From the IMG/VR virus record IMGVR_UViG_2778261574_000002: a stretch of DNA of 64,000 nucleotides, one strand, 5' to 3'. The DNA comes from a virus (lineage: Duplodnaviria; Heunggongvirae; Uroviricota; Caudoviricetes). Position numbers and translations under genes: made by a program. Under the pieces are notes generated by a model. It worked only from the letters and a program-made list of their open reading frames with translations. It was not told the origin of the DNA and did not search any database. Of this stretch, positions 2,077 to 59,434 are shown piece by piece (positions within the stretch are counted from its first letter, which is position 1; each line of letters starts with the position of its first letter).

Positions 2077-3269
2077 TAATCATCATCCCCGTATAGCTTG
2101 CGGGTAACTTCTTCGTCTTCCTCCTCGTCTTCGTCCAGGTCTTGTTCCAGCCATGGGTCGTTTGATACACCTTCAGTATCAACATCTCCATAACCGCCTG
2201 TATCAACGATATCGGCGATTTCTTCCCTACGCTGCTCAATCCACAATGCGGCATCGGCGCGGCGGTTGGCGGCCCGTTCTCGCGCAACTTTGTCCAGATC
2301 TTCAAGAGAAGGGCCACCGACGGCTGTTTGCCTTTCCTCATCATCGGTATTGGTCTTCGGAGCACGCAGATCGGCTTTGATTTGCTCCAGCATCAGGGGC
2401 GGCACTTTCCCGCCATGCGCCTCGATGAATTCAGCTGCTTCCAGCACTGACCAGTTATTTTCACGCTTTCGTTCGTATGCCAGCTTAACAATGCCAGCTT
2501 GCCCCATAGACAAAGCGTGCTTTTCCGCCTCCCGGCTTTCTTTTCGATAGTTATTCCGGATGCTGTAAATGGTGTTGATCAGGCTGCTTATCTGCGCGGA
2601 ACAGCTGTTTAGCATGCTCGCGATACGGTATTCAGGCGGAGTACCTTCATCATCGTCCTTTTGCTGATCGCGCATTTCCTGCACCAGGCGAATACACGTA
2701 TCCCTGGCGTTCTCCAGCATAAGGAGATGAGAAAGAGACTTTTCAAGAAGAGTGGTTTCCAGAACATCGGCCCCGGACCGACGCAACATAGCGCGCGCGG
2801 CCTTCCGCGCTTCAACGTTATCTATCAGGTAATCGCCAGCTTCGAATTCAAAGCGTTCACCATCATCATCCAGGGTGTCGCGTTCCAGGCGATCACGTAA
2901 GGTCCGGTGGGCGCGGGTGATCACGTCATGATCATCTGAACGATCATTTATGCGCTTATTTTGGCGCTTCGCATTCTCGACTGCGGCACTGACAACGGCA
3001 TTAACTCTCTGTTTTTCCGCTATTTCAGCCGCAATATGATCACCTGCATGTTGATCATTAGAGTGATCAATGATCATGCTTTTTAGTGGCTTCCTGACTG
3101 GCTTATTTGGCTTGCGGCTGTCCGCAGTCCTGGTGTCTTCTTTGAAGGCACGGAGATAACGACGTGCGGTATTAGGGTTAAGATTAAACTCGGCGGCATA
3201 CTGTGCGATGGTGTAACCACCATCTCGCGCCAGGCGAGCAAAATTCTTTTTGTGATCGTCCCAGGTCAC
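2076..3269 (-). CDS. pacA: terminase small / pac-recognition subunit (PacA-like)
   Basis: 397 aa; N-terminal HTH-like segment, acidic C-terminus; contains the GATC-hexamer pac site in its 5' third. Confidence 0.8.
2890..3076. other. pac packaging site: two clusters of GATC-containing hexamers
   Basis: Hexamers at 2891-2896, 2918-2923, 2929-2934, 2941-2946 and 3037-3042, 3052-3057, 3064-3069, 3071-3076, flanking a ~90-bp hexamer-free core. P1 pac is known to be Dam-sensitive hexamer clusters inside pacA. Confidence 0.65.
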
Positions 3270-3354
3270 TTATGCTTCCTTTCGTAAAAACTCTTTTTGA
3301 CGCGAGGGTAACGAAAGTCACATGTCAAAAGGCCCGGAACGGGCAAGCAATCAA

Positions 3355-3807
3355 TCAGATACGTGCGGATGTGGCATTACCGTAATGACGGTGCTGACGG
3401 GCCACCTTATTGAAAAGTTGACGCGCCATTACCCAAGGCTGGTGCTCCCGGCGTTCCTTTTCGTCCTGCGTCATATAGAGTTCGTTCTGGAGTTTTTCAT
3501 CAAACCGGCGCGGAGCGCGGCTACGGCGAAAGAATTCAGGATTCAGAGAGTGGATCTGAAATCTACGTGGGCGTGTACTGTCATCAATCAAAACAGACGA
3601 ATACTTAGACACAGCGATAGCCTTTAAGCGCAGATAAACATCGCGCTTATCGACATCCAGATGCGGGTATTCCTTTTCAAGAATTGCTGCGAGTTCTTTC
3701 GCTGATAGAAGAGATTTAGTGCGGATCATGTAATCCGCAATCTCGTACGATGTTATTCGTGAGTGTTTTATTTCCATGAAGTGGCGTCCCTGCCAGTTAA
3801 GTAACAT
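3355..3807 (-). CDS. lpa: late promoter activator (Lpa-like), 150 aa
   Basis: Sits just upstream of pacA on the same strand; AGGTGA ribosome-binding site before the ATG at 3807; operator-like site ~70 bp upstream. Assignment is by position and size. Confidence 0.5.
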   Translation of the reverse strand: MLLNWQGRHFMEIKHSRITSYEIADYMIRTKSLLSAKELAAILEKEYPHLDVDKRDVYLRLKAIAVSKYSSVLIDDSTRPRRFQIHSLNPEFFRRSRAPRRFDEKLQNELYMTQDEKERREHQPWVMARQLFNKVARQHRHYGNATSARI

Positions 3808-3877
3808 CCTGTCACCTACTGATTAGCCCATGTCAACTAATCAACGTGGAATATAATACCCTCGATTAAAGAAATAG

Positions 3878-3894
3878 CAATACATTAGAGCAAT
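3878..3894 (-). promoter_or_regulatory. C1 operator-like 17-mer (14/17 match)
   Basis: CAATACATTAGAGCAAT on the + strand against AAATTTATTAGAGCAAT; located upstream of the lpa start. Confidence 0.4.
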
Positions 3895-3895
3895 T

Positions 3896-4939
3896 TTATC
3901 TAACGCTCGACGAGTGACTTGTGATAGCGCCGACTCCAAGCGCGTAATCAAAGAACAATCGTTGATGCATCGCCAGCCTACCGTGCGTCTTCTCCCAATT
4001 ATCGCGGTCACGCTCAATATCACGCTGGCATGACTGGCACAGAGGAATTGCGTAAATGTCATGCGCGCATAATCGACTATGACGAACGATATAAGGCGTA
4101 ATGTGAGCGCCAGCTCCCGCCGCTCCACACCCACAGCATGGACGGGAAGCAACAAAGTCCATGTACTCAGGTAATTTTAGCGATTGCAGTTTTGGTATTT
4201 TGAAATGCGCCATGCCAGGGTCGGAGTCAACATCCACAGAGCATACTTTTGCACGCATCGGCGCGGCGCGTTCTTCCATCATCTGAACATATGCTGTAGC
4301 GCGATCGTCATACGGGCGAATATCTGCCTCTTTCAGAGGTCCGCTATCCTGCGTTGCGGCTTTCATCTTATTTATTGATATACGGCAAACTTCTTCCGGC
4401 ATCAGGTGCATCATGTTGCGCATGAAAGCCCACCAGCACAGTTCCTGAATACTTAAATCATGGCCATCTGAAAGCCCCATTTCCTGACGGGCGACATCCA
4501 GTATCCAGTTAACGCGATTATTATGCAGCGTTTCTTTCAGCTCATTAAAACCACGCATCCGGTAATGGTTATCGTGATGCCAGCACAACAACACCGCGCT
4601 ATTGTCTCGTTCAGCGTGGACAATATGGTTGTCACACCAACTACGATCTGCGGCCTGGCATTGACCCTCTTTCCTACGCAACCACGCCACCAGCGCGTCA
4701 ATTCCACCAATACGGCGAAACAGTTCATCGCTGTTAAAAAACGGCTGCAACGCCTCATTTGTTGCCATAGTTTGCTCGGAAACAACGAGGCCGTCGTCCA
4801 TGTGCTCGATTAACTCACGCGGCACCGGCTCCATAATAAATTTACGGCCAGCCTCCACCAGCTTTCTGACTTCCTGATCCACTTTGAATGTGGCGACGCC
4901 AAGCTCTTTTTGTACAAAGGGAGTAATTACGGCTTTCAC
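3896..4939 (-). CDS. hypothetical protein with Cys/His-rich C-terminal motif (pdcB position)
   Basis: 347 aa; GAAGGTG ribosome-binding site; C-terminal CCGCG..H..C..H..CQSCQ cluster suggests a zinc-binding or nuclease-like domain. Confidence 0.55.
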
Positions 4940-4966: not shown

Positions 4967-5146
4967 TTATCTGCTGCCCGGCATTCTCTGTTTAAGCACA
5001 ACCATTTCCTGACGGCATAACACAGCAATAGCGGTCCTGGCACCAATTTGCTTACCAACCAGGTATTGCTTTACCTCGCGGCGACTCACGCCATCAAGAA
5101 GCATCTTTAACGCTCTACGGGACAATTTGTTGTATTTACGTGCCAT
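4967..5146 (-). CDS. small basic HTH-like protein
   Basis: 59 aa from an internal ATG (MARKYNKLSRRALKML..) preceded by GGAG; starts 5 nt after the doc stop. Confidence 0.4.
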   Translation of the reverse strand: MARKYNKLSRRALKMLLDGVSRREVKQYLVGKQIGARTAIAVLCRQEMVVLKQRMPGSR

Positions 5147-5150
5147 TGAT

Positions 5151-5531
5151 CTACTCCGCAGAACCATACAATCTACGTAACGTGGCGGCGACAGTAGATA
5201 CAGATATCTCTCCGGTCGCAGCCCCTACGGTAAGGTCTACCAGTTCAGGGGAGTCAAATACCTGCACCCCGTTACGGCGTAGAAATAACAGCGCACTGTT
5301 TAGCGCGGTACGCTTATTGGCATCATTGAATATATGCCCTCTCGCTGTAGCCACCAGGTAGGTGGCGGAGACTTCGAAAAGGTCGGTGATCTCTTCGTAG
5401 GCAACTCTGGCCTGAACTCTCCCGATAATGGCCTCTGCCCTACCCGGATCAGACATTCCCGGCAGGCCGCCGTAGCGGCTTATATTCGCATCATGAAGCG
5501 CAACAAGTTCTTCCGGTGATATATGTCTCAT
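5151..5531 (-). CDS. doc: Doc toxin (Fic-family)
   Basis: 126 aa, [36 protein letters not shown].. recognised as P1 Doc; start overlaps the phd stop (ATGA). Confidence 0.95.
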
Positions 5532-5752
5532 TATCGGTTAACCAGTTCCTTGTTGGTGGAGTCCAGGGTGTCAAACAGGGATGCAAATTCAGCATCCAGC
5601 GCCGCTTTTTTGTAGGCTTCGAAAGTAGCCTTGCTGACAATTACTGCTGGCTCACGGCCTCTGCGGGTGATTTCAACCTCTTCCCCGGCTTCAACATTGT
5701 TGAGCACTTCAGAAAGGTTGCCACGCGCGGTACGGAAGTTAATGGATTGCAT
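5531..5752 (-). CDS. phd: Phd antitoxin
   Basis: 73 aa from [39 protein letters not shown]..; recognised as P1 Phd; the ORF-track start at 5758 adds two residues. Confidence 0.95.
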
Positions 5753-5760
5753 AAACACCT

Positions 5761-5783
5761 CGTGTACTCGTTATGTGTACACA
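5761..5783. promoter_or_regulatory. candidate Phd/Doc autoregulatory operator (GTGTAC palindromes)
   Basis: CGTGTACTCG..TGTGTACACA immediately upstream of phd. Confidence 0.45.
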
Positions 5784-5824
5784 ATTATAAACTTCACAGG
5801 CATAAAGCACCAGCACTTTGCAGC

Positions 5825-6214
5825 TTAAATAACCGGACAATCATCAAATTCCCCACTTCGGGCATCATTGATGACATGAGTGATCACACCAAAAACAGCA
5901 TTACTGCCCGTGTATCCATCGTCATCTACTGGTAACGCCTCTTTCTTCCCGGTGCTTAAGTCCTCCAGGTGCTGGCGCGGATACTTCCTGTATCTCTTTA
6001 TGCGATATTCACCCTCCATAGCGCACACAAGCAGAGAACCATCAACCGGAGTAAGCGAGGAATCAACCACCAGCAAAGCTCCCTGCAATATTCCCTCACG
6101 GTGATGGCTATCAGCTGCCCGCATGAAGTAGGTCGCTGAAGGATGTCTAATTATCTGCTGATCAAGAGAAATTCGGCTTTCAACATAATCCGCCGCAGGA
6201 GAAGGGAAGCCCAT
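5825..6214 (-). CDS. humD: UmuD-like S24 peptidase (HumD-like)
   Basis: 129 aa; LexA/UmuD-type C-terminal domain (..GDSM-like region, ..YRIKRY..); LexA box 20 bp upstream. Confidence 0.8.
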   Translation of the reverse strand: MGFPSPAADYVESRISLDQQIIRHPSATYFMRAADSHHREGILQGALLVVDSSLTPVDGSLLVCAMEGEYRIKRYRKYPRQHLEDLSTGKKEALPVDDDGYTGSNAVFGVITHVINDARSGEFDDCPVI

Positions 6215-6234
6215 AGCGTTTTACCTCAATGATA

Positions 6235-6250
6235 CTGTTTATTCATACAG
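6235..6250. promoter_or_regulatory. LexA (SOS) box
   Basis: CTGTTTATTCATACAG (CTG-N10-CAG), embedded in TACTG..CAGTA, upstream of humD. Confidence 0.7.
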
Positions 6251-6337
6251 TATACATTGAAAAGGCATAGTTTGTGAAAGCGGGGTTTGTAGGCGCGCCA
6301 CGCTGGGGGCTAATCACATTTCTCCCCCATCTTGCCG

Positions 6338-6589
6338 TTATTTTTTTGGTGCATCCTCGTTCTGATACACCGGATCGCTCCCTTTTGGCAACTGGAGGCT
6401 TAACTGCCGGTAGTGCCGTAGCCGTTCCATGAAATAGGCGCGCAGGTTTTCCGGTTGCTCACGGGCCACCTGCTCTGCAATCACAGGTATATTCAGCCGT
6501 TCTTTGTAAGCAACGCCGCTGGCGGCAAGGTCTACGTTCACCTTGTCTCGCTCTTCCTGGCTTTTAGCTGCTATATTTCGATCTGACAC
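6338..6589 (-). CDS. hot: homolog of DNA polymerase III theta subunit (Hot-like)
   Basis: 83 aa; [39 protein letters not shown] resembles HolE theta. Confidence 0.8.
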
Positions 6590-51479: not shown

Positions 51480-51496
51480 AAATTTATTAGAGCATT
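51480..51496 (-). promoter_or_regulatory. C1 operator-like 17-mer (16/17)
   Basis: AAATTTATTAGAGCATT on +; upstream of the antirepressor operon. Confidence 0.6.
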
Positions 51497-51592
51497 GTTT
51501 GTTTAATAAATGCACAATTGGATCTAATAACCTCTTTTTTTTAAAGGCGAAAATATGTACCCTAAATGAGTTATAAGGCAGGTGAGGTTATA

Positions 51593-52084
51593 ATGAGAAA
51601 ACTATTACTACCGTTATTATTTATGGCTGGGACTGTTAATGCAGCATCAAGCGTAAAGGAGATTTGTACCGATTATACGAAATACCTTGGGCACGTTTAC
51701 GGATTTGCTGTCAGTGAAGACGAATCCATGCGCAAGAAGTTACTGTCAGATATGAAGCGCCTTAAACTTTCTGAAGCGATGGTGCAGCAGGAACTGTATA
51801 AAGTCTCAACCAACGCAAATGCTAAATACCAATATTCTCGCCTATTAAACCCCGATGCAAATGAGATCAATCGAAGCACTTTCGATTATATGGTAAAGGC
51901 ATGCGAAACCGCTCCTGATTTTGCTATCCCTAGCTGGGGTGTGCTGGTGGCGAGCAATGCCGTTAATAAAGAAGATGTTGGAAGAAATGGCATTGACTCA
52001 ATCAGAAATGCCCCAGGAATGCGCCATCAAAACGTGCAGGGTACGCTTGAAGAACGAGCCAGGGGGCCGGGTGTAGCTCCATAA
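51593..52084 (+). CDS. exported protein with Sit-mimicking C-terminal tail
   Basis: 163 aa from MRKLLLPLLFMAGTVNA (signal peptide) after GGTGAGG; C-terminus ..GIDSIRNAPGMRHQNVQGTLEERARGPG. Confidence 0.55.
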   Translation: MRKLLLPLLFMAGTVNAASSVKEICTDYTKYLGHVYGFAVSEDESMRKKLLSDMKRLKLSEAMVQQELYKVSTNANAKYQYSRLLNPDANEINRSTFDYMVKACETAPDFAIPSWGVLVASNAVNKEDVGRNGIDSIRNAPGMRHQNVQGTLEERARGPGVAP

Positions 52085-52172
52085 TTTAATGAATAATATT
52101 AAATTCTCTGGGCATAGTGGATCTAACAATATGGACTATGCCTATAATATCTAAAACAAAAAGGATAAAAAT

Positions 52173-52679
52173 ATGAAATTATATAAGTCATTGTATAGCT
52201 TTTTATTAATGTCCTCTTTTCTGCCATTATCAGCAATGGCAGGTTCTACCGTTTGGACGGTAGGAGGTGAGCAAGGGTGGAGAGAAATCTCTGCAACCAA
52301 TGACGATGGTTATACAATTAACTTTTCTTGTGATGCTGGAGCAAGGGAAGGTTCAGAAGATCATATCGCTGGAAGAAATTTGTATGTAAGCGGAGGAAAA
52401 GAGAATGCCGATTTTTCTACACGCGACACAATATCACGTAAAGCAGATGTAATTACTTTAATTGTTGGCCCGGATAGTTTTAATATTGGCACGCAAAACA
52501 CTGCTCCTAATCGTAGGGAATGGTATTCATTTTGGAAGGCAGTGTCATCTACAAATGAAAAAAACATAGATGTATATATCGGTTCGAGTCGAATCACATC
52601 ATTCACTCTGGATGGTATTTCCAGTATTTATACAGAAGCTAAAAATGACGGGTGTTTAAAACAAGATGACGGTGAATAA
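52173..52679 (+). CDS. exported hypothetical protein
   Basis: 168 aa; signal peptide MKLYKSLYSFLLMSSFLPLSAMA; AT-rich. Confidence 0.55.
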   Translation: MKLYKSLYSFLLMSSFLPLSAMAGSTVWTVGGEQGWREISATNDDGYTINFSCDAGAREGSEDHIAGRNLYVSGGKENADFSTRDTISRKADVITLIVGPDSFNIGTQNTAPNRREWYSFWKAVSSTNEKNIDVYIGSSRITSFTLDGISSIYTEAKNDGCLKQDDGE

Positions 52680-53739
52680 AGTGAAGGATATTAAACACAT
52701 TTCGCTTAACTCTAATAATAAAGCTGAAGGCACTGCCTTTTATGATTATTTAAATGAAATTAAAGGAGTGAGGCATAAAAAGATAAGTGGTTTATTAAAT
52801 TCAGAATATATTTACAAGAGTTTAGTTAAACAGTTTGGAACAGTTAAAAAACAAGAATTAATTAATGATTGTTTTCGAAAAGAACTTGAGTCTTTACCAA
52901 AAGTTACGAGAATTGCACACCAGTTTCGTGAACAAATGGTATTTTTACAGAAACAGTATCAGGCGGCTTTTCCCAGTGATGCAAATGAGCATATTCAAAT
53001 AATTAAAAATCAAGCTGAAATGGCTATGCCGTTACGAAAACACTCAGAAGCCATTAATAAGATAGCTGGCTTAAATAATATGGAGGAGGTATTTAAAGAA
53101 TTACACTCTAATATAAATTACAAAATTAAGATAAGCAAAGATATTAAAGAAATAATAAAGCAGTATAATAAAACAAGAAGTGTATTATTAGAGCAAGTAG
53201 TAGAGCTTGGGCTTGTTACTATCGCGCAGGCTTATGCTAATGATTCTATAAAATCAGCGCATACCGAAAGTGAGCATCAAAACAAAGGATTTAATAAATC
53301 TAGTTCGACGTTTTTTGATTCATTTAAGGCGCTTCCTTCTCCTATTCAGATCTTCCTTCTGTGGATTTTTTATCAAGTGGTGCTTGGCGCTATAACTGAT
53401 TATGCAAAAGAAAAGACATTATCGCAAATTTACAAGATGGAATCATATCTTCTATCTCTAAATGAGGATAAGCCAATATCTAAGCAAAAGCTAACACAAG
53501 AAAATAAAGATATTCAGTGGGAGGATCTTAATAATTTTAGAGCTATAACAGGTGATAACGTAAGGTTGCATGTCGGCCCTTCTTTAAATAGTGAAGTGAT
53601 TGAATGCATTGGCAAAAACACAATTGTTGCTATTTTAGATAAGAAAGATCGTCAATGGCTTTACGTGCAGGTTAAATCAGGGGATGAGTTTATTACTGGT
53701 TGGATTACACGAACATACACAAAGCCTCTTAAGGCTTGA
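52666..53739 (+). CDS. membrane protein with C-terminal SH3b-like domain
   Basis: 357-aa ORF (start uncertain, ATG 52666 or GTG ~52681); hydrophobic IQIFLLWIFYQVVLGAI; C-terminal ..RLHVGPSLNSEVIECIGKNTIVAILDKKDRQWLYVQV... Confidence 0.45.
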   Translation: MTVNKVKDIKHISLNSNNKAEGTAFYDYLNEIKGVRHKKISGLLNSEYIYKSLVKQFGTVKKQELINDCFRKELESLPKVTRIAHQFREQMVFLQKQYQAAFPSDANEHIQIIKNQAEMAMPLRKHSEAINKIAGLNNMEEVFKELHSNINYKIKISKDIKEIIKQYNKTRSVLLEQVVELGLVTIAQAYANDSIKSAHTESEHQNKGFNKSSSTFFDSFKALPSPIQIFLLWIFYQVVLGAITDYAKEKTLSQIYKMESYLLSLNEDKPISKQKLTQENKDIQWEDLNNFRAITGDNVRLHVGPSLNSEVIECIGKNTIVAILDKKDRQWLYVQVKSGDEFITGWITRTYTKPLKA

Positions 53740-53839
53740 ATTTTATCTCCGCATCTTCGGATTGGGTGTTGATGACGATGTGCTACTTGAAGCACTTGAG
53801 TTGTTTTAACGTAGTATCTGAAATGTGTAGACTGACCGG

Positions 53840-53862
53840 TAACAAATGACAACTCGTAGAAT
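53840..53862 (+). promoter_or_regulatory. late-promoter-like motif
   Basis: TAACAAATGACAACTCGTAGAAT upstream of the tail operon. Confidence 0.5.
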
Positions 53863-56059: not shown

Positions 56060-59000
56060 ATGGAAAGAAAAAACGCCAACATTGACGATGTTATAAGGAC
56101 AGTTGAAACCGCCAGCGCAAAAGAGCTGGAAGAGCTTGCAGGTATCCGGGAAGCTGTTGAAGATTTGAAAGGGGGACGCGTTGCAACTGTTGATCCTGTC
56201 TCTCACAGTGTGTCGGCATTAAATCGCACAATCGAAAATTCCAGGCCAGACTTTGTGGCCAATGCGCCATCAGTGGCCCCTATTGTTGAGGCAATGAAAC
56301 GGCTTAATTTAGGGGACGTTTCTCGTGTAGTTCAGGAGGATGTTGCTCTACAGGAACCGCAGGCCAAATCAACTACGCGAAAGGGTAAAAAACGACGCAA
56401 GAAGGCTATAACAGAAGATGTAAAGGCGCAACGGACCGAAGCAGCCGAACACGCTCGCGAAATGTTCGGTCAAAAAGGCGGTGCGCAAAAAAGCCAAAAC
56501 CAACGCGATGCGCGTGGTCGTTTTATTGGAAAGCCAGGGAGTAAGGCCGCAGCGGAAGATGCCCGTGCTGAACGTGCTGAAAAGGCCAGGCGCAAAGAGG
56601 ATGATGAGCGTCTAAATGCTGAATCAGGTTTATTAAAAAAACTGTCAAAAGTAGCTGAAGGCATAGGTAACCCTTCAGAGACTCGCGCCGTCGATGCGTT
56701 AGGTTATGCCGTTGCTGGTCCATTGTGGGCCGCAGGGAAGGAGCTTGGCGGGATATCAAAAGAAGTTGGTGGATCGCTTAATGGTGCCAGAAAGTCTATT
56801 GCCGATGTGATTCGTGGCAATGACGATAACAGCCGTAGAAAAGGTTTTTTTAGGCGTAAATCGCAAAATAGTGCCGATGTCGTTCAGGTTAACACCCAAA
56901 AACGGACGGTTCAGGAACTTCAGGAGCAGACCAGCGAAATTAAAGAGGGCAATGACAAGATTCTCAGCGCCCTTGATCAGATAGCCAAAAACACCGGGAA
57001 AAAGAAGGGCGGCTTGCTGTCCAAACTATTTAGCCTGTTAGGGAAGGGGGCCGGTGGCGTCGCGTCGTTGTTAATGGGGCGTGGCATGCTGAAAAAAGCT
57101 GGAGCACTCGCTTTTGGCGCTCTGGGGGCAAAGAAACTTGTAGGAATGCTACGCGGTGGTGGCAAGAAGACTCTCGCCCATGAAGGCGGAGATTTGGCTG
57201 CCCGGGCAGCAGGTAAACTTGGATTAAAGGCAGTTGGTAAAGGGGCGTTACGCGCAATTCCCCTAGTCGGCACAGTGGCTGGAGGTATTTATGATGCGGT
57301 AACCGGTTGGAATGATACAGAAGCGCAACGTCGAGCGTTTGGGCTTAAATCAGGACAAGATCCATCATTCCAGCAAAAAGCCGCTTATACGTTAGCCAAT
57401 GTTCTTGATTTGGGGGGACTGGTATCTGGTATTAGCAGTGCTATTGGTGATGTTCTCAAATCACTTGGATTTGAGGATATCGGCAATATGTTGCAATCAT
57501 TTTCGACGGAAAGTATTGCCCAGGCCATTGATAGCGGGGTTACCAACTTAGAAACATATATTTCTAACCTTGGCGACACCATTTCTACCAAGTTCGATGA
57601 TTACACAGCAAAGATTGGTGATGCTGTTTCAGCATGGTTTAGCGATACATCTAATAAGTTGCTTGAAAAGCTGGATGCCATAAAAGACTTCTTTACTGTC
57701 GATAACCTGAAACAGGTTTTCAGTGATGCAATTGATAGTGTAATTGATTTCATTAAGAACCCAGGGAAACACATTAAAGAGGCGGCTGGTAATATTTGGG
57801 ATGGGGTTAAAAATTTACCAGGTAAAGCATTAGATGCAGCGGTTGATGCCGTTAAAAATACCCCTGCGGCAATGATTGTATCAAAAATACCCAATCCGAT
57901 CGGCGAGGCTAATGCGAAAGAAATCACTCCAGAGTTAAAAGTTCCGGTTAATAGCCACCAGGGGACATCTGATTCTAAAACTGAATACGATGCCAAACAG
58001 ACTAATATTGCTGCCCGCGTGATAAATGCGGCCCTGGATATGGTGAAAGATAGCAATAAAACAGTTAAAGAAACTGCTAATCAGATTATCAATGCAAATA
58101 CCGTAGATACAGGAAATAAAGCAGCACAAACAATTGATGCTGCCTTGGGCCAGTCTGCTACAGGCAAGGAGGAAGCATTAAGTGCATATGAGATAGATAA
58201 ACGTCGATTTAACAATGGCAAGGATGTTTCTTTGCCAAAATTAAATGCTGCCGGATACCAATGGATTTCTGACAATGCCGATTATTTTGATGAGCTTGAA
58301 CGTAAGTATGGGCTTGAAAAAGGGATTCTGTCAGCAGTTGCATCCGCAGAGTCTAGTGCAGGCCAGAGAACTGGAAATCCAGTAGACAAAAACGGGAACA
58401 AACTTTCATCTGCCCTTGGGGCTTTTCAGATCACTAAAGGTACAAGGGAGGATCTTGGACTCAGCGATGCTGATGCCATGGATACACGAAAAGCAGCTGA
58501 TGGTGCCGCCAGATACCTAAGTATGCTGATGAACCGTTATAACGGTGATCAGGGTCGTGCAATAGCTGCCTATCATGCTGGTATGGGGCATGTTGATAAG
58601 GGGAGAGTAGTCGCAGGTACCGGCGAATATGTTACTCGTGTCAGAGGGTATCAGCAGATGCTCAATAATGGTGCCGTTTATGGCTCTAAGGTAGATCATA
58701 GCGCACCAGCAATTTACGAAAAGATACCTGATAACGCTGTTATCGATCAGTCTACTGGCCTGGCGTTTACCCCTGGTGATAGCCCGTTTGAGAAAGGCGG
58801 TCTGGTAGACAAAATTGGCAATGCTGTTGGCGTTAACGATCTGGTCAACAAATTCATGAATGGCCGGGGTATGCGTCGGGAAGTCGTTCAGGGAACGCTC
58901 GAAGAACGTGCACGAGGGAAGGGGACCGCAACAGCAGCTGGCAATGTGTATGTTGATACTCCTATGCCAGTTGAAGAGGCGCGTCCGGTGGCCAGCAACT

Positions 59001-59434
59001 CAAGTTACTTTGACCAACTCGGCGCACAAATGGGGATTGATGGACTATTCGATAAACTCCGCAACTCGCCGGGGATGCGGAAAAATAATGCGCCTGAACC
59101 AGCCTCCACGTACCAGGTGACGACTGCCGCCAACGATTTGCAGCAACCAACCGGTCGTATGCAGATAGACGGACAGGTTATTAGTGACCTTGGCGGCTCC
59201 GGTGCCAAGCCGACAATGCAGTTGGCTGATAATACCGTTTCACTTGATGGTGAAACGAAGCGGCTGTTTGCGCAGATGACCTCATTGCTTGCCAGGATTG
59301 AAGAGCACACTAAAGACTCGGCGAAAGGCCAGGGAACTGTCGTAAAGGTCAGCACGCCTCAACCGGGCGTTATGCGCACGGTGCCACTGTCAATTGATGA
59401 TCCGTTGATGAATGACTACGCGAGAGTTGATTGA
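56060..59434 (+). CDS. sit: tape-measure-like injection protein with lytic transglycosylase domain (Sit-like)
   Basis: 1124 aa; Ala/Gly/Lys-rich helical repeats; SLT-type segment ..AESSAGQ..GAFQIT..AYHAGMG. Confidence 0.85.
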   Translation: MERKNANIDDVIRTVETASAKELEELAGIREAVEDLKGGRVATVDPVSHSVSALNRTIENSRPDFVANAPSVAPIVEAMKRLNLGDVSRVVQEDVALQEPQAKSTTRKGKKRRKKAITEDVKAQRTEAAEHAREMFGQKGGAQKSQNQRDARGRFIGKPGSKAAAEDARAERAEKARRKEDDERLNAESGLLKKLSKVAEGIGNPSETRAVDALGYAVAGPLWAAGKELGGISKEVGGSLNGARKSIADVIRGNDDNSRRKGFFRRKSQNSADVVQVNTQKRTVQELQEQTSEIKEGNDKILSALDQIAKNTGKKKGGLLSKLFSLLGKGAGGVASLLMGRGMLKKAGALAFGALGAKKLVGMLRGGGKKTLAHEGGDLAARAAGKLGLKAVGKGALRAIPLVGTVAGGIYDAVTGWNDTEAQRRAFGLKSGQDPSFQQKAAYTLANVLDLGGLVSGISSAIGDVLKSLGFEDIGNMLQSFSTESIAQAIDSGVTNLETYISNLGDTISTKFDDYTAKIGDAVSAWFSDTSNKLLEKLDAIKDFFTVDNLKQVFSDAIDSVIDFIKNPGKHIKEAAGNIWDGVKNLPGKALDAAVDAVKNTPAAMIVSKIPNPIGEANAKEITPELKVPVNSHQGTSDSKTEYDAKQTNIAARVINAALDMVKDSNKTVKETANQIINANTVDTGNKAAQTIDAALGQSATGKEEALSAYEIDKRRFNNGKDVSLPKLNAAGYQWISDNADYFDELERKYGLEKGILSAVASAESSAGQRTGNPVDKNGNKLSSALGAFQITKGTREDLGLSDADAMDTRKAADGAARYLSMLMNRYNGDQGRAIAAYHAGMGHVDKGRVVAGTGEYVTRVRGYQQMLNNGAVYGSKVDHSAPAIYEKIPDNAVIDQSTGLAFTPGDSPFEKGGLVDKIGNAVGVNDLVNKFMNGRGMRREVVQGTLEERARGKGTATAAGNVYVDTPMPVEEARPVASNSSYFDQLGAQMGIDGLFDKLRNSPGMRKNNAPEPASTYQVTTAANDLQQPTGRMQIDGQVISDLGGSGAKPTMQLADNTVSLDGETKRLFAQMTSLLARIEEHTKDSAKGQGTVVKVSTPQPGVMRTVPLSIDDPLMNDYARVD

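What the first reader, a model, noticed from the sequence alone, without database searches (positions are those of the whole stretch)
51566..53739. AT-rich cassette of three exported/membrane proteins between the immunity operon and the tail operon
Three plus-strand genes (two with cleavable signal peptides, one membrane protein with an SH3b-like C-terminus) have visibly lower GC than the flanking phage genes and sit where P1-family phages carry superinfection-exclusion functions. Their sizes do not match what I recall for the P1 sim product, so this looks like a different, possibly undescribed, periplasm-targeted exclusion or defence module.
Basis: partly seen in the sequence, partly recalled or inferred. 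Interest (0 to 1): 0.75.

Follow-up and report, generated by a model that had tools for sequence, protein, structure and literature searches.

The report
Alternative cassette at P1 sim locus
In this P1-like phage-plasmid, the site where phage P1 carries its superinfection-exclusion (sim) genes holds three unrelated, uncharacterised cell-envelope proteins, one of which ends in a peptide copied from the phage's own DNA-injection protein, giving a testable idea for how related phages are kept out.

Summary
Three plus-strand genes lie at 51566-53739: O1 (likely start 51593), O2 and O3. They form the most AT-rich 2.2 kb of the window (GC 0.363 vs 0.475). O1 and O2 have Sec-type signal peptides. O3 has one transmembrane helix and a C-terminal SH3b domain.

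The site is exactly the P1 sim locus, between the C1 operator Oc4/immI operon and the late promoter LPsit/pmgC-tub-pmgB-sit. None of the three resembles SimB or SimC. O1 is the full-length form of P1 "SimA"; P1 keeps only its first 45 codons.

The unit is composite. O1 is resident (GC 0.447) and clipped at its 3' end. O2 (YfjT family) and O3 are the imported AT-rich pair. At least five alternative cassettes of exported proteins share one right-hand junction. About 34 of roughly 500 P1-like plasmids in PLSDB carry this one.

O1 is a confidently modelled helical domain plus a disordered tail. The tail matches a motif in the tape-measure/injection transglycosylase Sit.

Best reading, inferred and untested: an envelope-level superinfection-exclusion module against P1-like phages, with O1 as a periplasmic Sit mimic. 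Rated a new variant of a known kind, of moderate interest.

The parts
51480..51496 (-). C1 repressor operator (Oc4/Op51 equivalent) in the divergent control region shared with the c4-icd-ant (immI) operon
   Evidence: AATGCTCTAATAAATTT matches the operator consensus at 16 of 17 positions. It aligns with the annotated P1 Oc4 at L001 3081-3097.
51501..51527 (+). Position equivalent to the predicted P1 promoter PsimA (weak sigma-70-like)
   Evidence: Placed by 96% DNA homology to the P1 annotation. My consensus scan did not call it, so it is predicted only.
51593..52084 (+). O1: exported protein, the full-length form of P1 'SimA' (163 aa from ATG 51593; the alternative upstream ATG 51566 gives 172 aa). 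A helical domain followed by a disordered C-terminal tail.
   Evidence: It belongs to PHROG 3933 (E 2e-113). Its GC is 0.447.
51593..51643 (+). O1 signal peptide (MRKLLLPLLFMAGTVNA, predicted cleavage after VNA)
   Evidence: Read from the sequence. It is conserved in the family alignments and has low pLDDT.
51956..52078 (+). O1 C-terminal Sit-like motif (NAVNKEDVGRNGIDSIRNAPGMRHQNVQGTLEERARGPGVA)
   Evidence: BLASTP against the window's Sit gives 51% identity and E 8e-8. It matches the PHROG 2533 (Sit family) profile at positions 927-963, E 1.8e-5. The Smith-Waterman score is 90 against 32.8 +/- 4.4 for 2000 shuffles. N148, G151 and R153 are invariant in A1 and at least 90% conserved in A5.
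52173..52679 (+). O2: exported 168-aa protein of the YfjT family (Pfam PF27224), with a beta-sheet plus two helices and two invariant cysteines
   Evidence: It belongs to PHROG 3429. Its GC is 0.381.
52666..53739 (+). O3: bitopic inner-membrane protein. It has a variable, repeat-containing N-terminal region (about 220 aa), one TM helix, and a conserved periplasmic linker plus SH3b domain. Its start overlaps the end of O2 by 14 nt.
   Evidence: It belongs to PHROG 7086. Its GC is 0.326.
53329..53406 (+). O3 transmembrane segment (about aa 222-247)
   Evidence: Kyte-Doolittle 19-residue windows score above 1.4. The segment is conserved across the family.
53554..53718 (+). O3 SH3b domain (aa 297-351)
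   Evidence: Pfam SH3_3, E 3.1e-6. The precomputed annotation of homologues lists PF08239. Most invariant columns of the family fall here.
53722..53737 (+). Small hairpin overlapping the O3 stop codon, with a weak terminator-like shape
   Evidence: Consensus scan only. Function is not shown.
53833..53841 (.). Common right-hand recombination junction of all sim-locus alleles, just upstream of the late promoter LPsit
   Evidence: Homology to P1, P7 and p1303_95 resumes at 53841, 53839 and 53833. The P1 annotation places LPsit at the equivalent of 53844-53862.
58820..58930 (+). Sit motif copy 1 (Sit aa 921-957), C-terminal to the SLT domain (aa 742-847)
58988..59089 (+). Sit motif copy 2 (Sit aa 977-1010). 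This degenerate copy is absent from the Salmonella/Klebsiella-type Sit.

Best explanation
What it is (shown). This is one allele of the cassette-exchange hot spot at the P1 sim locus in an IncY P1-like phage-plasmid. It is composite. O1 is a resident exported gene, the intact form of P1 'simA', clipped at its 3' end. O2 (YfjT family, periplasmic) and O3 (inner-membrane anchored, periplasmic SH3b) are an imported AT-rich pair.

How it most likely works (inferred). The proteins are made from their own promoter region upstream of the late tail operon and sit in the envelope of the lysogen. There they interfere with entry of superinfecting P1-like phages after adsorption, as P1 Sim does.

The specific proposal concerns O1. 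When an incoming phage contracts its tail, the C-terminal part of its tape-measure/injection transglycosylase Sit emerges into the periplasm. O1's flexible C-terminal tail displays the same ...N-x-(P/R)-G-M-R-x-x-x-V-Q-G-T-L-E-E-R-A-R-G... motif that lies just after the Sit lytic domain. O1 would therefore act as a competitive decoy for whatever that Sit segment must bind. Alternatively, it would dock onto Sit itself. Either way, wall penetration or DNA transfer would be blocked.

O2 and O3 are modular additions acting in the same compartment. O3 probably tethers to peptidoglycan through its SH3b domain.
For: Position.
- The cassette occupies exactly the P1 sim locus. That locus is flanked by the C1 operator Oc4/immI operon and by LPsit/pmgC-tub-pmgB-sit.
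- Every allele seen there encodes exported or membrane proteins: SimB/SimC; the P7 lipoprotein with weak TraT-like similarity plus a DUF5384 protein; and a multi-TM protein plus YfjT-like plus SH3 protein.
- P1 simABC is dispensable for plaque formation, while sit, pmgB, tub and pmgC are essential (PMC10695390). This fits an accessory role.

Compartment.
- O1 and O2 have signal peptides, and each family conserves a pair of cysteines.
- O3 has a TM helix and an SH3b domain.

Link to Sit.
- The O1 tail matches Sit by BLASTP (E 8e-8) and by PHROG profile (E 1.8e-5). Its alignment score lies 13 sd above shuffles.
- The core N/G/R residues are invariant in A1 and at least 90% conserved in A5, across O1 homologues only 58-66% identical overall.
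- The motif is present in every P1-like Sit examined from Escherichia, Salmonella, Klebsiella and a metagenome. That Sit C-terminal region occurs only in P1-like phages.
- AlphaFold gives O1 a confident helical domain (pLDDT above 90, about aa 30-130). The motif sits in a low-confidence, flexible tail, as expected for a displayed linear motif.

Synteny. The O1 plus YfjT-like pair lies directly upstream of pmgC-tub-pmgB-sit in all divergent P1-like elements examined. This holds even where the ant operon is not adjacent.

Divergence. YfjT-like proteins are only 28-40% identical between subtypes, and the O3 N-terminal region is highly variable. This would fit an arms race.

Precedent (my own knowledge; only the T4 case is cited from a paper). 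T4 uses periplasmic Spackle against the tail lysozyme together with membrane Imm (reviewed in PMC11436027). HK97 gp15 and TP-J34 Ltp are aimed at tape-measure proteins.
Against: - There are no functional data of any kind for O1, O2 or O3.
- No PADLOC hit was found.
- Expression in lysogens is assumed. The promoter is only a weak prediction carried over from the P1 annotation.
- O1 tails do not match their own element's Sit better than other elements' Sit.
- About half of O1 homologues keep only the N-x-(P/R)-G-M-R-(H/Q)-Q core and lack the GTLEERARG part.
- O1 here has lost the roughly 50-aa C-terminal extension present in the 215-aa form.
- The three genes are not an obligate unit, so a joint mechanism is not implied.
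- Even P1 sim exclusion was, as I recall, demonstrated from multicopy clones.
Confidence: 0.4

Rival explanations
1. The genes are lysogenic-conversion ('moron') envelope proteins that change host physiology, for example envelope stress tolerance, serum or colicin resistance, or adhesion. They would not block phage entry. The locus would simply be a permissive cargo site.
For: - The locus is a low-GC hot spot with a fixed right-hand junction that accepts unrelated cargo, including a DUF4760 gene.
- The P7 allele has a lipoprotein with weak TraT-like similarity. TraT is associated with serum resistance as well as surface exclusion (my own knowledge).
- The YfjT family takes its name from E. coli yfjT, which as I recall lies in the chromosomal cryptic prophage CP4-57 and has no phage phenotype reported.
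Against: - It does not explain the Sit-like motif conserved in O1.
- It does not explain the conserved placement of O1 plus a YfjT-like gene next to the sit operon across genera.
- All three families are essentially confined to P1-like elements: 26, 19 and 42 clusters in libraries of billions of proteins.
Confidence: 0.25
2. O1 and O2 serve the phage's own lytic cycle or virion function. For example, they could restrain or guide Sit's transglycosylase activity, protect the producing cell against lysis-from-without by progeny, or prevent progeny loss on debris. O3 would be an unrelated passenger.
For: - Strict synteny of O1 plus a YfjT-like gene immediately upstream of pmgC-tub-pmgB-sit on the same strand. 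In L018 and L019 no immunity operon or C1 operator lies nearby, so co-transcription with late genes is possible.
- The peptide motif shared with Sit.
Against: - In P1-type genomes the late promoter LPsit lies downstream of the cassette.
- P1 and P7 lack O1 and O2 entirely and are fully functional phages.
- simABC at the same site is non-essential.
- Tail proteins assemble in the cytoplasm, so an exported protein cannot meet them there.
Confidence: 0.15
3. The Sit-like tail of O1 is a recombination relic with no function, and the three genes are independent decaying passengers.
For: - The locus shows repeated nested truncations of O1: P7 lost all of it, P1 keeps 45 codons, and this window lacks the last roughly 50 aa.
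- There is no covariation between an element's O1 tail and its own Sit.
Against: - The ORFs are intact and highly conserved in many independent plasmids.
- The motif core is invariant in A1 and at least 90% conserved in A5 within an otherwise variable tail.
- O1 and O2 give confident AlphaFold models.
- Apart from one 20-nt stretch, sit and O1 share no nucleotide-level similarity, so this is not a recent DNA patch.
Confidence: 0.1

Closest known systems
Phage P1 sim locus (simA-simB-simC; SimC is the processed periplasmic superinfection-exclusion protein)
   Same: - It occupies the identical genomic site and orientation, between Oc4/PsimA and LPsit.
- All its products carry signal peptides.
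- The locus is accessory and non-essential.
- O1 aa 1-45 is identical to SimA aa 1-45.
   Different: - O1, O2 and O3 have no detectable similarity to SimB or SimC by BLASTP, and a YfjT-family (O2) profile finds none by hhalign.
- P1 SimA is a 52-aa remnant, whereas O1 is a 163-aa protein with a folded domain and a Sit-like tail.
- There is no membrane SH3b protein in P1.
Phage T4 Spackle (Sp) plus Imm
   Same: The logic would be the same: a small exported periplasmic protein aimed at the tail-borne cell-wall hydrolase of an incoming phage, working alongside an inner-membrane protein that blocks DNA transfer (PMC11436027; details from my own knowledge).
   Different: - The link to the hydrolase-bearing protein here is a shared linear motif, not a demonstrated inhibitor interface.
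Tape-measure-directed entry blocks (HK97 gp15, S. thermophilus TP-J34 Ltp, and the SNIPE defence system)
   Same: Envelope-located proteins that act at genome injection and are associated with the incoming phage's tape-measure protein (SNIPE: PMC13190303; gp15 and Ltp from my own knowledge).
   Different: - They are unrelated in sequence and architecture.
- None is known to carry a copy of a tape-measure motif. The mimicry idea is specific to O1 and untested.
YfjT family (Pfam PF27224; named after E. coli YfjT, which as I recall is a CP4-57 prophage protein)
   Same: - O2's 95%-identical cluster representative and all neighbouring homologues carry the precomputed PF27224 annotation.
- They share a signal peptide, a length of about 150 aa, and the invariant W28, G35, C53, W117 and C161.
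   Different: - The family has no known function.
- It is tiny: 19 representative clusters at E up to 1e-3 among 1.84 billion proteins.
- O2 is only 28-52% identical to other subtypes.
Phage P7 upf50.5/upf50.0 and the other sim-locus alleles
   Same: They share the same right-hand junction (53833-53841) and the same kind of exported or membrane cargo.
   Different: - The protein families differ: a glycine-zipper/TraT-like lipoprotein and a DUF5384 protein.
- The P7 replacement removes O1 completely, up to the operator.

Membership tests
P1 Sim (SimB/SimC) superinfection-exclusion proteins | Sequence homology to SimC (264-aa precursor) or SimB | tested here: not met
   BLASTP of O1, O2 and O3 against SimB and SimC gave no hit better than E 0.68. 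hhalign of the YfjT-family (O2) profile against SimC and SimB aligned only the signal peptides, with probabilities of 0.3% and 2.6%.
P1 Sim (SimB/SimC) superinfection-exclusion proteins | Location between the immI control region (Oc4) and LPsit/pmgC | tested here: met
   Flanks are 96-97.5% identical to P1. Homology ends at 51732 and resumes at 53841.
P1 Sim (SimB/SimC) superinfection-exclusion proteins | Exclusion of superinfecting P1 after adsorption | not testable with these tools
   This requires expression and phage challenge.
P1 SimA | Identity with the SimA ORF | tested here: met
   O1 aa 1-45 equals SimA aa 1-45. The P1 ORF ends 7 codons later at a TAA created by clustered substitutions. 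The P1 simB ATG aligns with the O1 Met55 codon. O1 is therefore the intact gene and P1 SimA the fragment.
Pfam PF27224 YfjT (O2) | Match to the family model | tested here: inconclusive
   The precomputed annotation lists PF27224 for the 95%-identical representative P0043 and for syntenic homologues. The local Pfam scan reported no YfjT match for O2 or for a syntenic homologue that carries the PF27224 annotation, so the model is probably not in that copy. Independent phmmer hits and the alignment support one family.
Pfam PF08239 SH3_3, bacterial SH3 (O3) | Domain match above the gathering score | tested here: met
   27.7 bits against a cutoff of 27, E 3.1e-6, aa 297-351. PF08239 is precomputed for nearly all 42 homologue clusters. 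The margin is narrow.
PTP-like phytase, PF14566 (O1) | Score above the gathering threshold and the catalytic CX5R motif | tested here: not met
   25.2 bits, below the cutoff of 27, and only a partial profile match. Neither cysteine of O1 is followed by R at +6 (read from the sequence). The hit is treated as spurious.
Known anti-phage defence systems (PADLOC-DB) | Match to any defence-protein model | tested here: not met
   No hits at E up to 1 for any of the three proteins.
T4 Spackle-type periplasmic inhibitor of a tail lysozyme | Structural similarity to Spackle, or binding to the hydrolase domain | tested here: not met
   [not shown]

The most novel reading that the evidence does not exclude
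O1 (full-length 'SimA') is a periplasmic molecular mimic of the P1 tape-measure/injection transglycosylase Sit. Its disordered tail would present the conserved N-x-(P/R)-G-M-R...GTLEERARG motif and so out-compete the incoming phage's Sit for an essential envelope partner. This would be a decoy-type superinfection exclusion specific to P1-like phages. It would also be the ancestral function of the sim locus, which P1 itself lost when simBC replaced it.
Probability: 0.2. Interest if true: 0.75.

Novelty: new variant of a known kind. Interest (0 to 1): 0.5.

Why it matters
P1 is a workhorse of bacterial genetics, and P1-like phage-plasmids spread resistance genes. Even so, how P1 DNA crosses the envelope and how Sim blocks it remain unknown.

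This locus offers three handles on that problem:
- It shows that the textbook P1 'simA' is only a gene stump, and that the common occupants of the site are O1 plus a YfjT-like protein.
- It links an exported prophage protein to a defined short motif in the injection protein Sit. That gives a concrete mutational target in both partners for dissecting entry and exclusion.
- It defines a set of at least five interchangeable envelope cassettes. These may set cross-exclusion groups among co-circulating P1-like plasmids, and so which resistance-carrying phage-plasmids can superinfect which hosts.

If the cassette has nothing to do with phages, it is an ordinary cargo hot spot.

Tried and rejected
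- **Known families.** Pfam, NCBIfam and PADLOC scans gave no informative family except SH3_3 for O3. PHROGs returned only unknown-function families plus the Sit match.
- **PTP-like phytase.** The weak hit for O1 was rejected: it is below threshold and O1 has no CX5R motif.
- **Solved structures by sequence.** Single-sequence searches of PDB with all three proteins and a YfjT-family profile search found nothing below E 0.07.
- **Remote homology to Sim.** hhalign of the YfjT profile against SimB and SimC aligned only the signal peptides.
- **Covariation test.** I asked whether O1 tails resemble their own element's Sit more than other elements' Sit, using 7 elements. There was no diagonal excess, so neither mimicry tracking nor gene conversion is supported at this sample size.
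- **Chromosomal YfjT context.** The only contig recovered was 2.9 kb and uninformative.
- **Literature.** I found no paper that characterises these three proteins. The Lobocka 2004 P1 genome paper is not held.
Full report
**1. The observation**

ORF listing confirms three plus-strand ORFs at 51566-52084, 52173-52679 and 52666-53739. I call them O1, O2 and O3.

The segment has GC 0.363 against a window mean of 0.475 (sd 0.026 for windows of equal size). It is the lowest-GC stretch of the whole 64 kb (profile). The drop is uneven: O1 0.447, O2 0.381, O3 0.326.

The export signals can be read directly from the sequence.
- O1 begins MRKLLLPLLFMAGTVNA|AS if translated from ATG 51593. That codon has a GGTGAGG Shine-Dalgarno sequence 8 nt upstream, while 51566 has a poor one.
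- O2 begins MKLYKSLYSFLLMSSFLPLSAMA|GS.
- O3 has one hydrophobic segment at about aa 222-247 and a Pfam SH3_3 match at aa 297-351 (E 3.1e-6, just above the gathering score).

**2. Where it sits**

The window is a P1-like IncY phage-plasmid. The 2.5-kb region is 100% identical to plasmids of E. fergusonii and E. coli.

The left flank is the P1 immI operon (c4, icd, ant1/2), then kilA and repL. The right flank is pmgC-tub-pmgB-sit.

Homology to P1 ends at 51732 and resumes at 53841. P1 carries simA-simB-simC between those points. The C1 operator Oc4 lies at 51480-51496, and the late promoter LPsit lies just right of the junction. The cassette therefore occupies exactly the sim locus, upstream of the late tail promoter and not inside the late operon.

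**3. Relationship to sim**

O1, O2 and O3 have no similarity to SimB, SimC or the P7 proteins Upf50.5 and Upf50.0. A YfjT-family profile against SimB and SimC aligns only the signal peptides.

O1 aa 1-45 is identical to P1 SimA aa 1-45. The DNA alignment shows what happened in P1.
- The two sequences are identical up to codon 45.
- A cluster of substitutions then creates a TAA in P1.
- The P1 simB start codon (ATGCGTAGG...) aligns with the internal Met55 codon of O1 (ATGCGCAAG...).

P1 'simA' is therefore the 5' stump of an O1-type gene, left behind when the simBC cassette recombined in.

**4. A nested cassette-exchange hot spot**

All alleles share the same right junction (53833-53841). The left junctions differ: P7 at 51494, which removes O1 entirely; P1 at 51732; and p1303_95 at 52072.

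The junction at 52072 lies inside the 3' end of O1. In p1303_95, O1 is 215 aa and continues past ...RGPG for about 50 more residues. Here it ends ...RGPGVAP. PHROG 3933 likewise matched only positions 1-162 of 213. The unit is therefore composite: a resident O1, clipped at its 3' end, plus the imported AT-rich O2-O3 pair.

I sampled records at even steps down the ranking of the 786 PLSDB records that match the 8.2-kb region. Reading the span of each match gives at least five alleles:
- this cassette (about 2.2 kb);
- O1 plus a YfjT-like gene (about 1.1 kb);
- simABC (about 1.34 kb);
- the P7 type with DUF5384 (about 1.2 kb);
- a multi-TM protein plus YfjT-like plus SH3 variant.

Some plasmids carry an extra DUF4760 gene at the right junction.

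Counts by tblastn in PLSDB:
- O1: 267 records, of which 126 are full length and the rest carry only the first 48 residues.
- YfjT-like: 177 records.
- O3: 64 records.
- The whole cassette: about 34 records.

A published survey already lists simABC as low-GC variable region 4 of P1-like plasmids (PMC9603915).

**5. The three proteins**

*O1.* The family has 26 clusters, all from P1-like contigs of Escherichia, Salmonella and Klebsiella.
- AlphaFold (20-sequence alignment, mean pLDDT 79) gives a confident all-helical domain at about aa 30-130 (pLDDT above 90). A low-confidence tail follows from about aa 140.
- C34 and C113 are invariant.

*O2.* Its 95%-identical cluster representative carries Pfam PF27224 (YfjT) in the precomputed annotation.
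- An exhaustive phmmer search of 1.84 billion representatives found only 19 clusters.
- These are proteins of about 150 aa with a signal peptide and invariant W28, G35, C53, W117 and C161.
- Subtypes are only 28-40% identical to each other.

*O3.* The family has 42 clusters, almost all on contigs of about 90-100 kb.
- The C-terminal roughly 130 aa (TM helix, linker and SH3b) are highly conserved and hold most of the invariant columns.
- The N-terminal region varies in length and sequence. It shows internal periodicities of 13 and 17 residues (z up to 7.5 in homologues, 3.2 in O3).
- With no signal peptide and a 220-aa N-terminus, an N-in/C-out topology with a periplasmic SH3b is the likely arrangement. 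This is inferred.
- The O3 start overlaps the end of O2 by 14 nt.

**6. Modularity**

O1 plus a YfjT-like gene, without O3, lies directly upstream of pmgC-tub-pmgB-sit in divergent P1-like elements. These come from Salmonella, K. aerogenes, a metagenome and short-read assemblies. Two of them have no ant operon adjacent.

A YfjT-like gene plus O3 occurs with a different first gene. An O3 homologue also stands alone elsewhere in Salmonella elements. The three genes are not an obligate system.

**7. The link to Sit**

O1 aa 131-171 aligns with aa 921-957 of the window's Sit (51% identity, E 8e-8). More weakly, it aligns with a second copy at aa 977-1010.
- hmmscan places the O1 tail on positions 927-963 of the Sit PHROG (E 1.8e-5).
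- The Smith-Waterman score is 90, against 32.8 +/- 4.4 (maximum 59) for 2000 shuffles.
- The motif lies C-terminal to the SLT domain, which spans aa 742-847.
- It is present in every P1-like Sit examined, with two copies in the E. coli type and one in the Salmonella/Klebsiella type.
- That Sit C-terminal region occurs only in P1-like phages.
- Within O1, N148, G151 and R153 are invariant in the 13-sequence alignment A1 and at least 90% conserved in the 20-sequence A5. The GTLEERARG half is kept in only about half of the variants.
- Similarity at the DNA level is limited to about 20 nt, so this is not a recent patch.
- A test for within-element matching of O1 tail and Sit motif in seven elements showed no diagonal excess.

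**8. Interpretation**

Shown:
- the anatomy, position, ancestry and distribution of the cassette;
- the envelope targeting signals;
- the motif shared with Sit.

Inferred:
- that the genes are expressed in lysogens;
- that they interfere with entry of P1-like phages;
- that the O1 tail acts as a decoy for, or a dock onto, the incoming Sit.

Four points support this reading. First, the one characterised occupant of the site is an exclusion protein. Second, every allele encodes exported or membrane proteins, including a weakly TraT-like lipoprotein in P7. Third, the locus is non-essential in P1 (PMC10695390). Fourth, there are precedents: T4 Sp/Imm (PMC11436027) and envelope defences that associate with tape-measure proteins (SNIPE, PMC13190303).

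Against it: there are no functional data, no defence-database match, uninformative folds, and only a predicted promoter. The rivals cannot be excluded. These are host-directed lysogenic conversion, a role in the phage's own lytic cycle suggested by the tight synteny with sit, and a functionless relic.

**9. Novelty and score**

The sequences are common in databases as hypothetical proteins, and the locus is a known variable region, so nothing here is categorically new.

What appears to be new:
- P1 simA recognised as a stump of O1. Databases already label O1 homologues 'simA domain protein', so the resemblance itself has been noticed.
- O1 plus a YfjT-like gene as the widespread occupants of the site.
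- The Sit-like tail, which turns a vague 'exclusion cassette' into a specific, testable mechanism.

I rate it a new variant of a known kind, with interest 0.5.

Noticed in passing
window 51566-51732; L001 (P1) 3167-3345: P1 simA (52 aa) is the 5' stump of an O1-type gene. The two are identical to codon 45, then clustered substitutions create a stop. The P1 simB start codon aligns with the internal Met55 codon of O1. The P1 annotation of simA as a 'putative superimmunity accessory function' probably describes a gene fragment.
   Followed up: yes
window 58820-59089 (Sit aa 921-1010); L015-L020 Sit: Sit carries two tandem, degenerate copies of a roughly 35-45-aa motif (…GMR…) after its SLT domain in E. 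coli-type elements. Salmonella/Klebsiella-type Sit has only one copy, the difference being an indel of 45-70 aa. The role of this region of Sit is unknown.
   Followed up: partly
window 53833-53841: All sim-locus alleles compared (P1, P7, p1303_95 and this window) share one right-hand junction within 9 bp, just upstream of LPsit, while the left junctions differ. This suggests a preferred recombination point. I did not look for a site or repeat there.
   Followed up: partly
L022 (CP057476.1) 3162-4124, between O3 and pmgC: One plasmid with this same cassette has an extra minus-strand DUF4760 gene (320 aa) inserted at the right junction. Two other sampled plasmids also have DUF4760 at the locus.
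   Followed up: partly
L002 (P7) 3379-3900: The P7 lipoprotein Upf50.5, which RefSeq labels 'DNA methyltransferase', shows weak similarity to the F-plasmid surface-exclusion lipoprotein TraT (E 7e-5, below cutoff) and a glycine-zipper motif. The RefSeq product name looks wrong.
   Followed up: no
window 52666-53330 (O3 aa 1-220); homologues P0025, P0027: The cytoplasmic N-terminal region of the O3 family is hypervariable in length. It is built of units with periodicities of about 13 and 17 residues (…KQAGFGG.L…), possibly amphipathic membrane-surface helices. The periplasmic SH3b end is almost invariant.
   Followed up: partly
L008 (Salmonella, GCA_037491995.1) 5001-6344: A 447-aa O3 homologue sits alone on the opposite strand to its neighbours, in a different part of a Salmonella P1-like element, near an HNH gene and a 2262-aa helicase/methylase-like gene. 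It behaves as an independent moron.
   Followed up: no
L018 and L019, upstream of 10001: In two divergent P1-like elements the O1 plus YfjT-like pair follows same-strand structural-looking genes directly. No ant operon lies beside it in either, and no C1 operator was found in L018 (L019 was not searched). Regulation may therefore differ from P1-type genomes.
   Followed up: partly
window 14704, 20470, 31137, 31148, 34670, 49815, 51480: Seven matches to the 17-bp C1 operator consensus with at most 2 mismatches, against 0.03 expected. One pair overlaps at 31137-31164. This fits the dispersed C1 regulon of P1.
   Followed up: no
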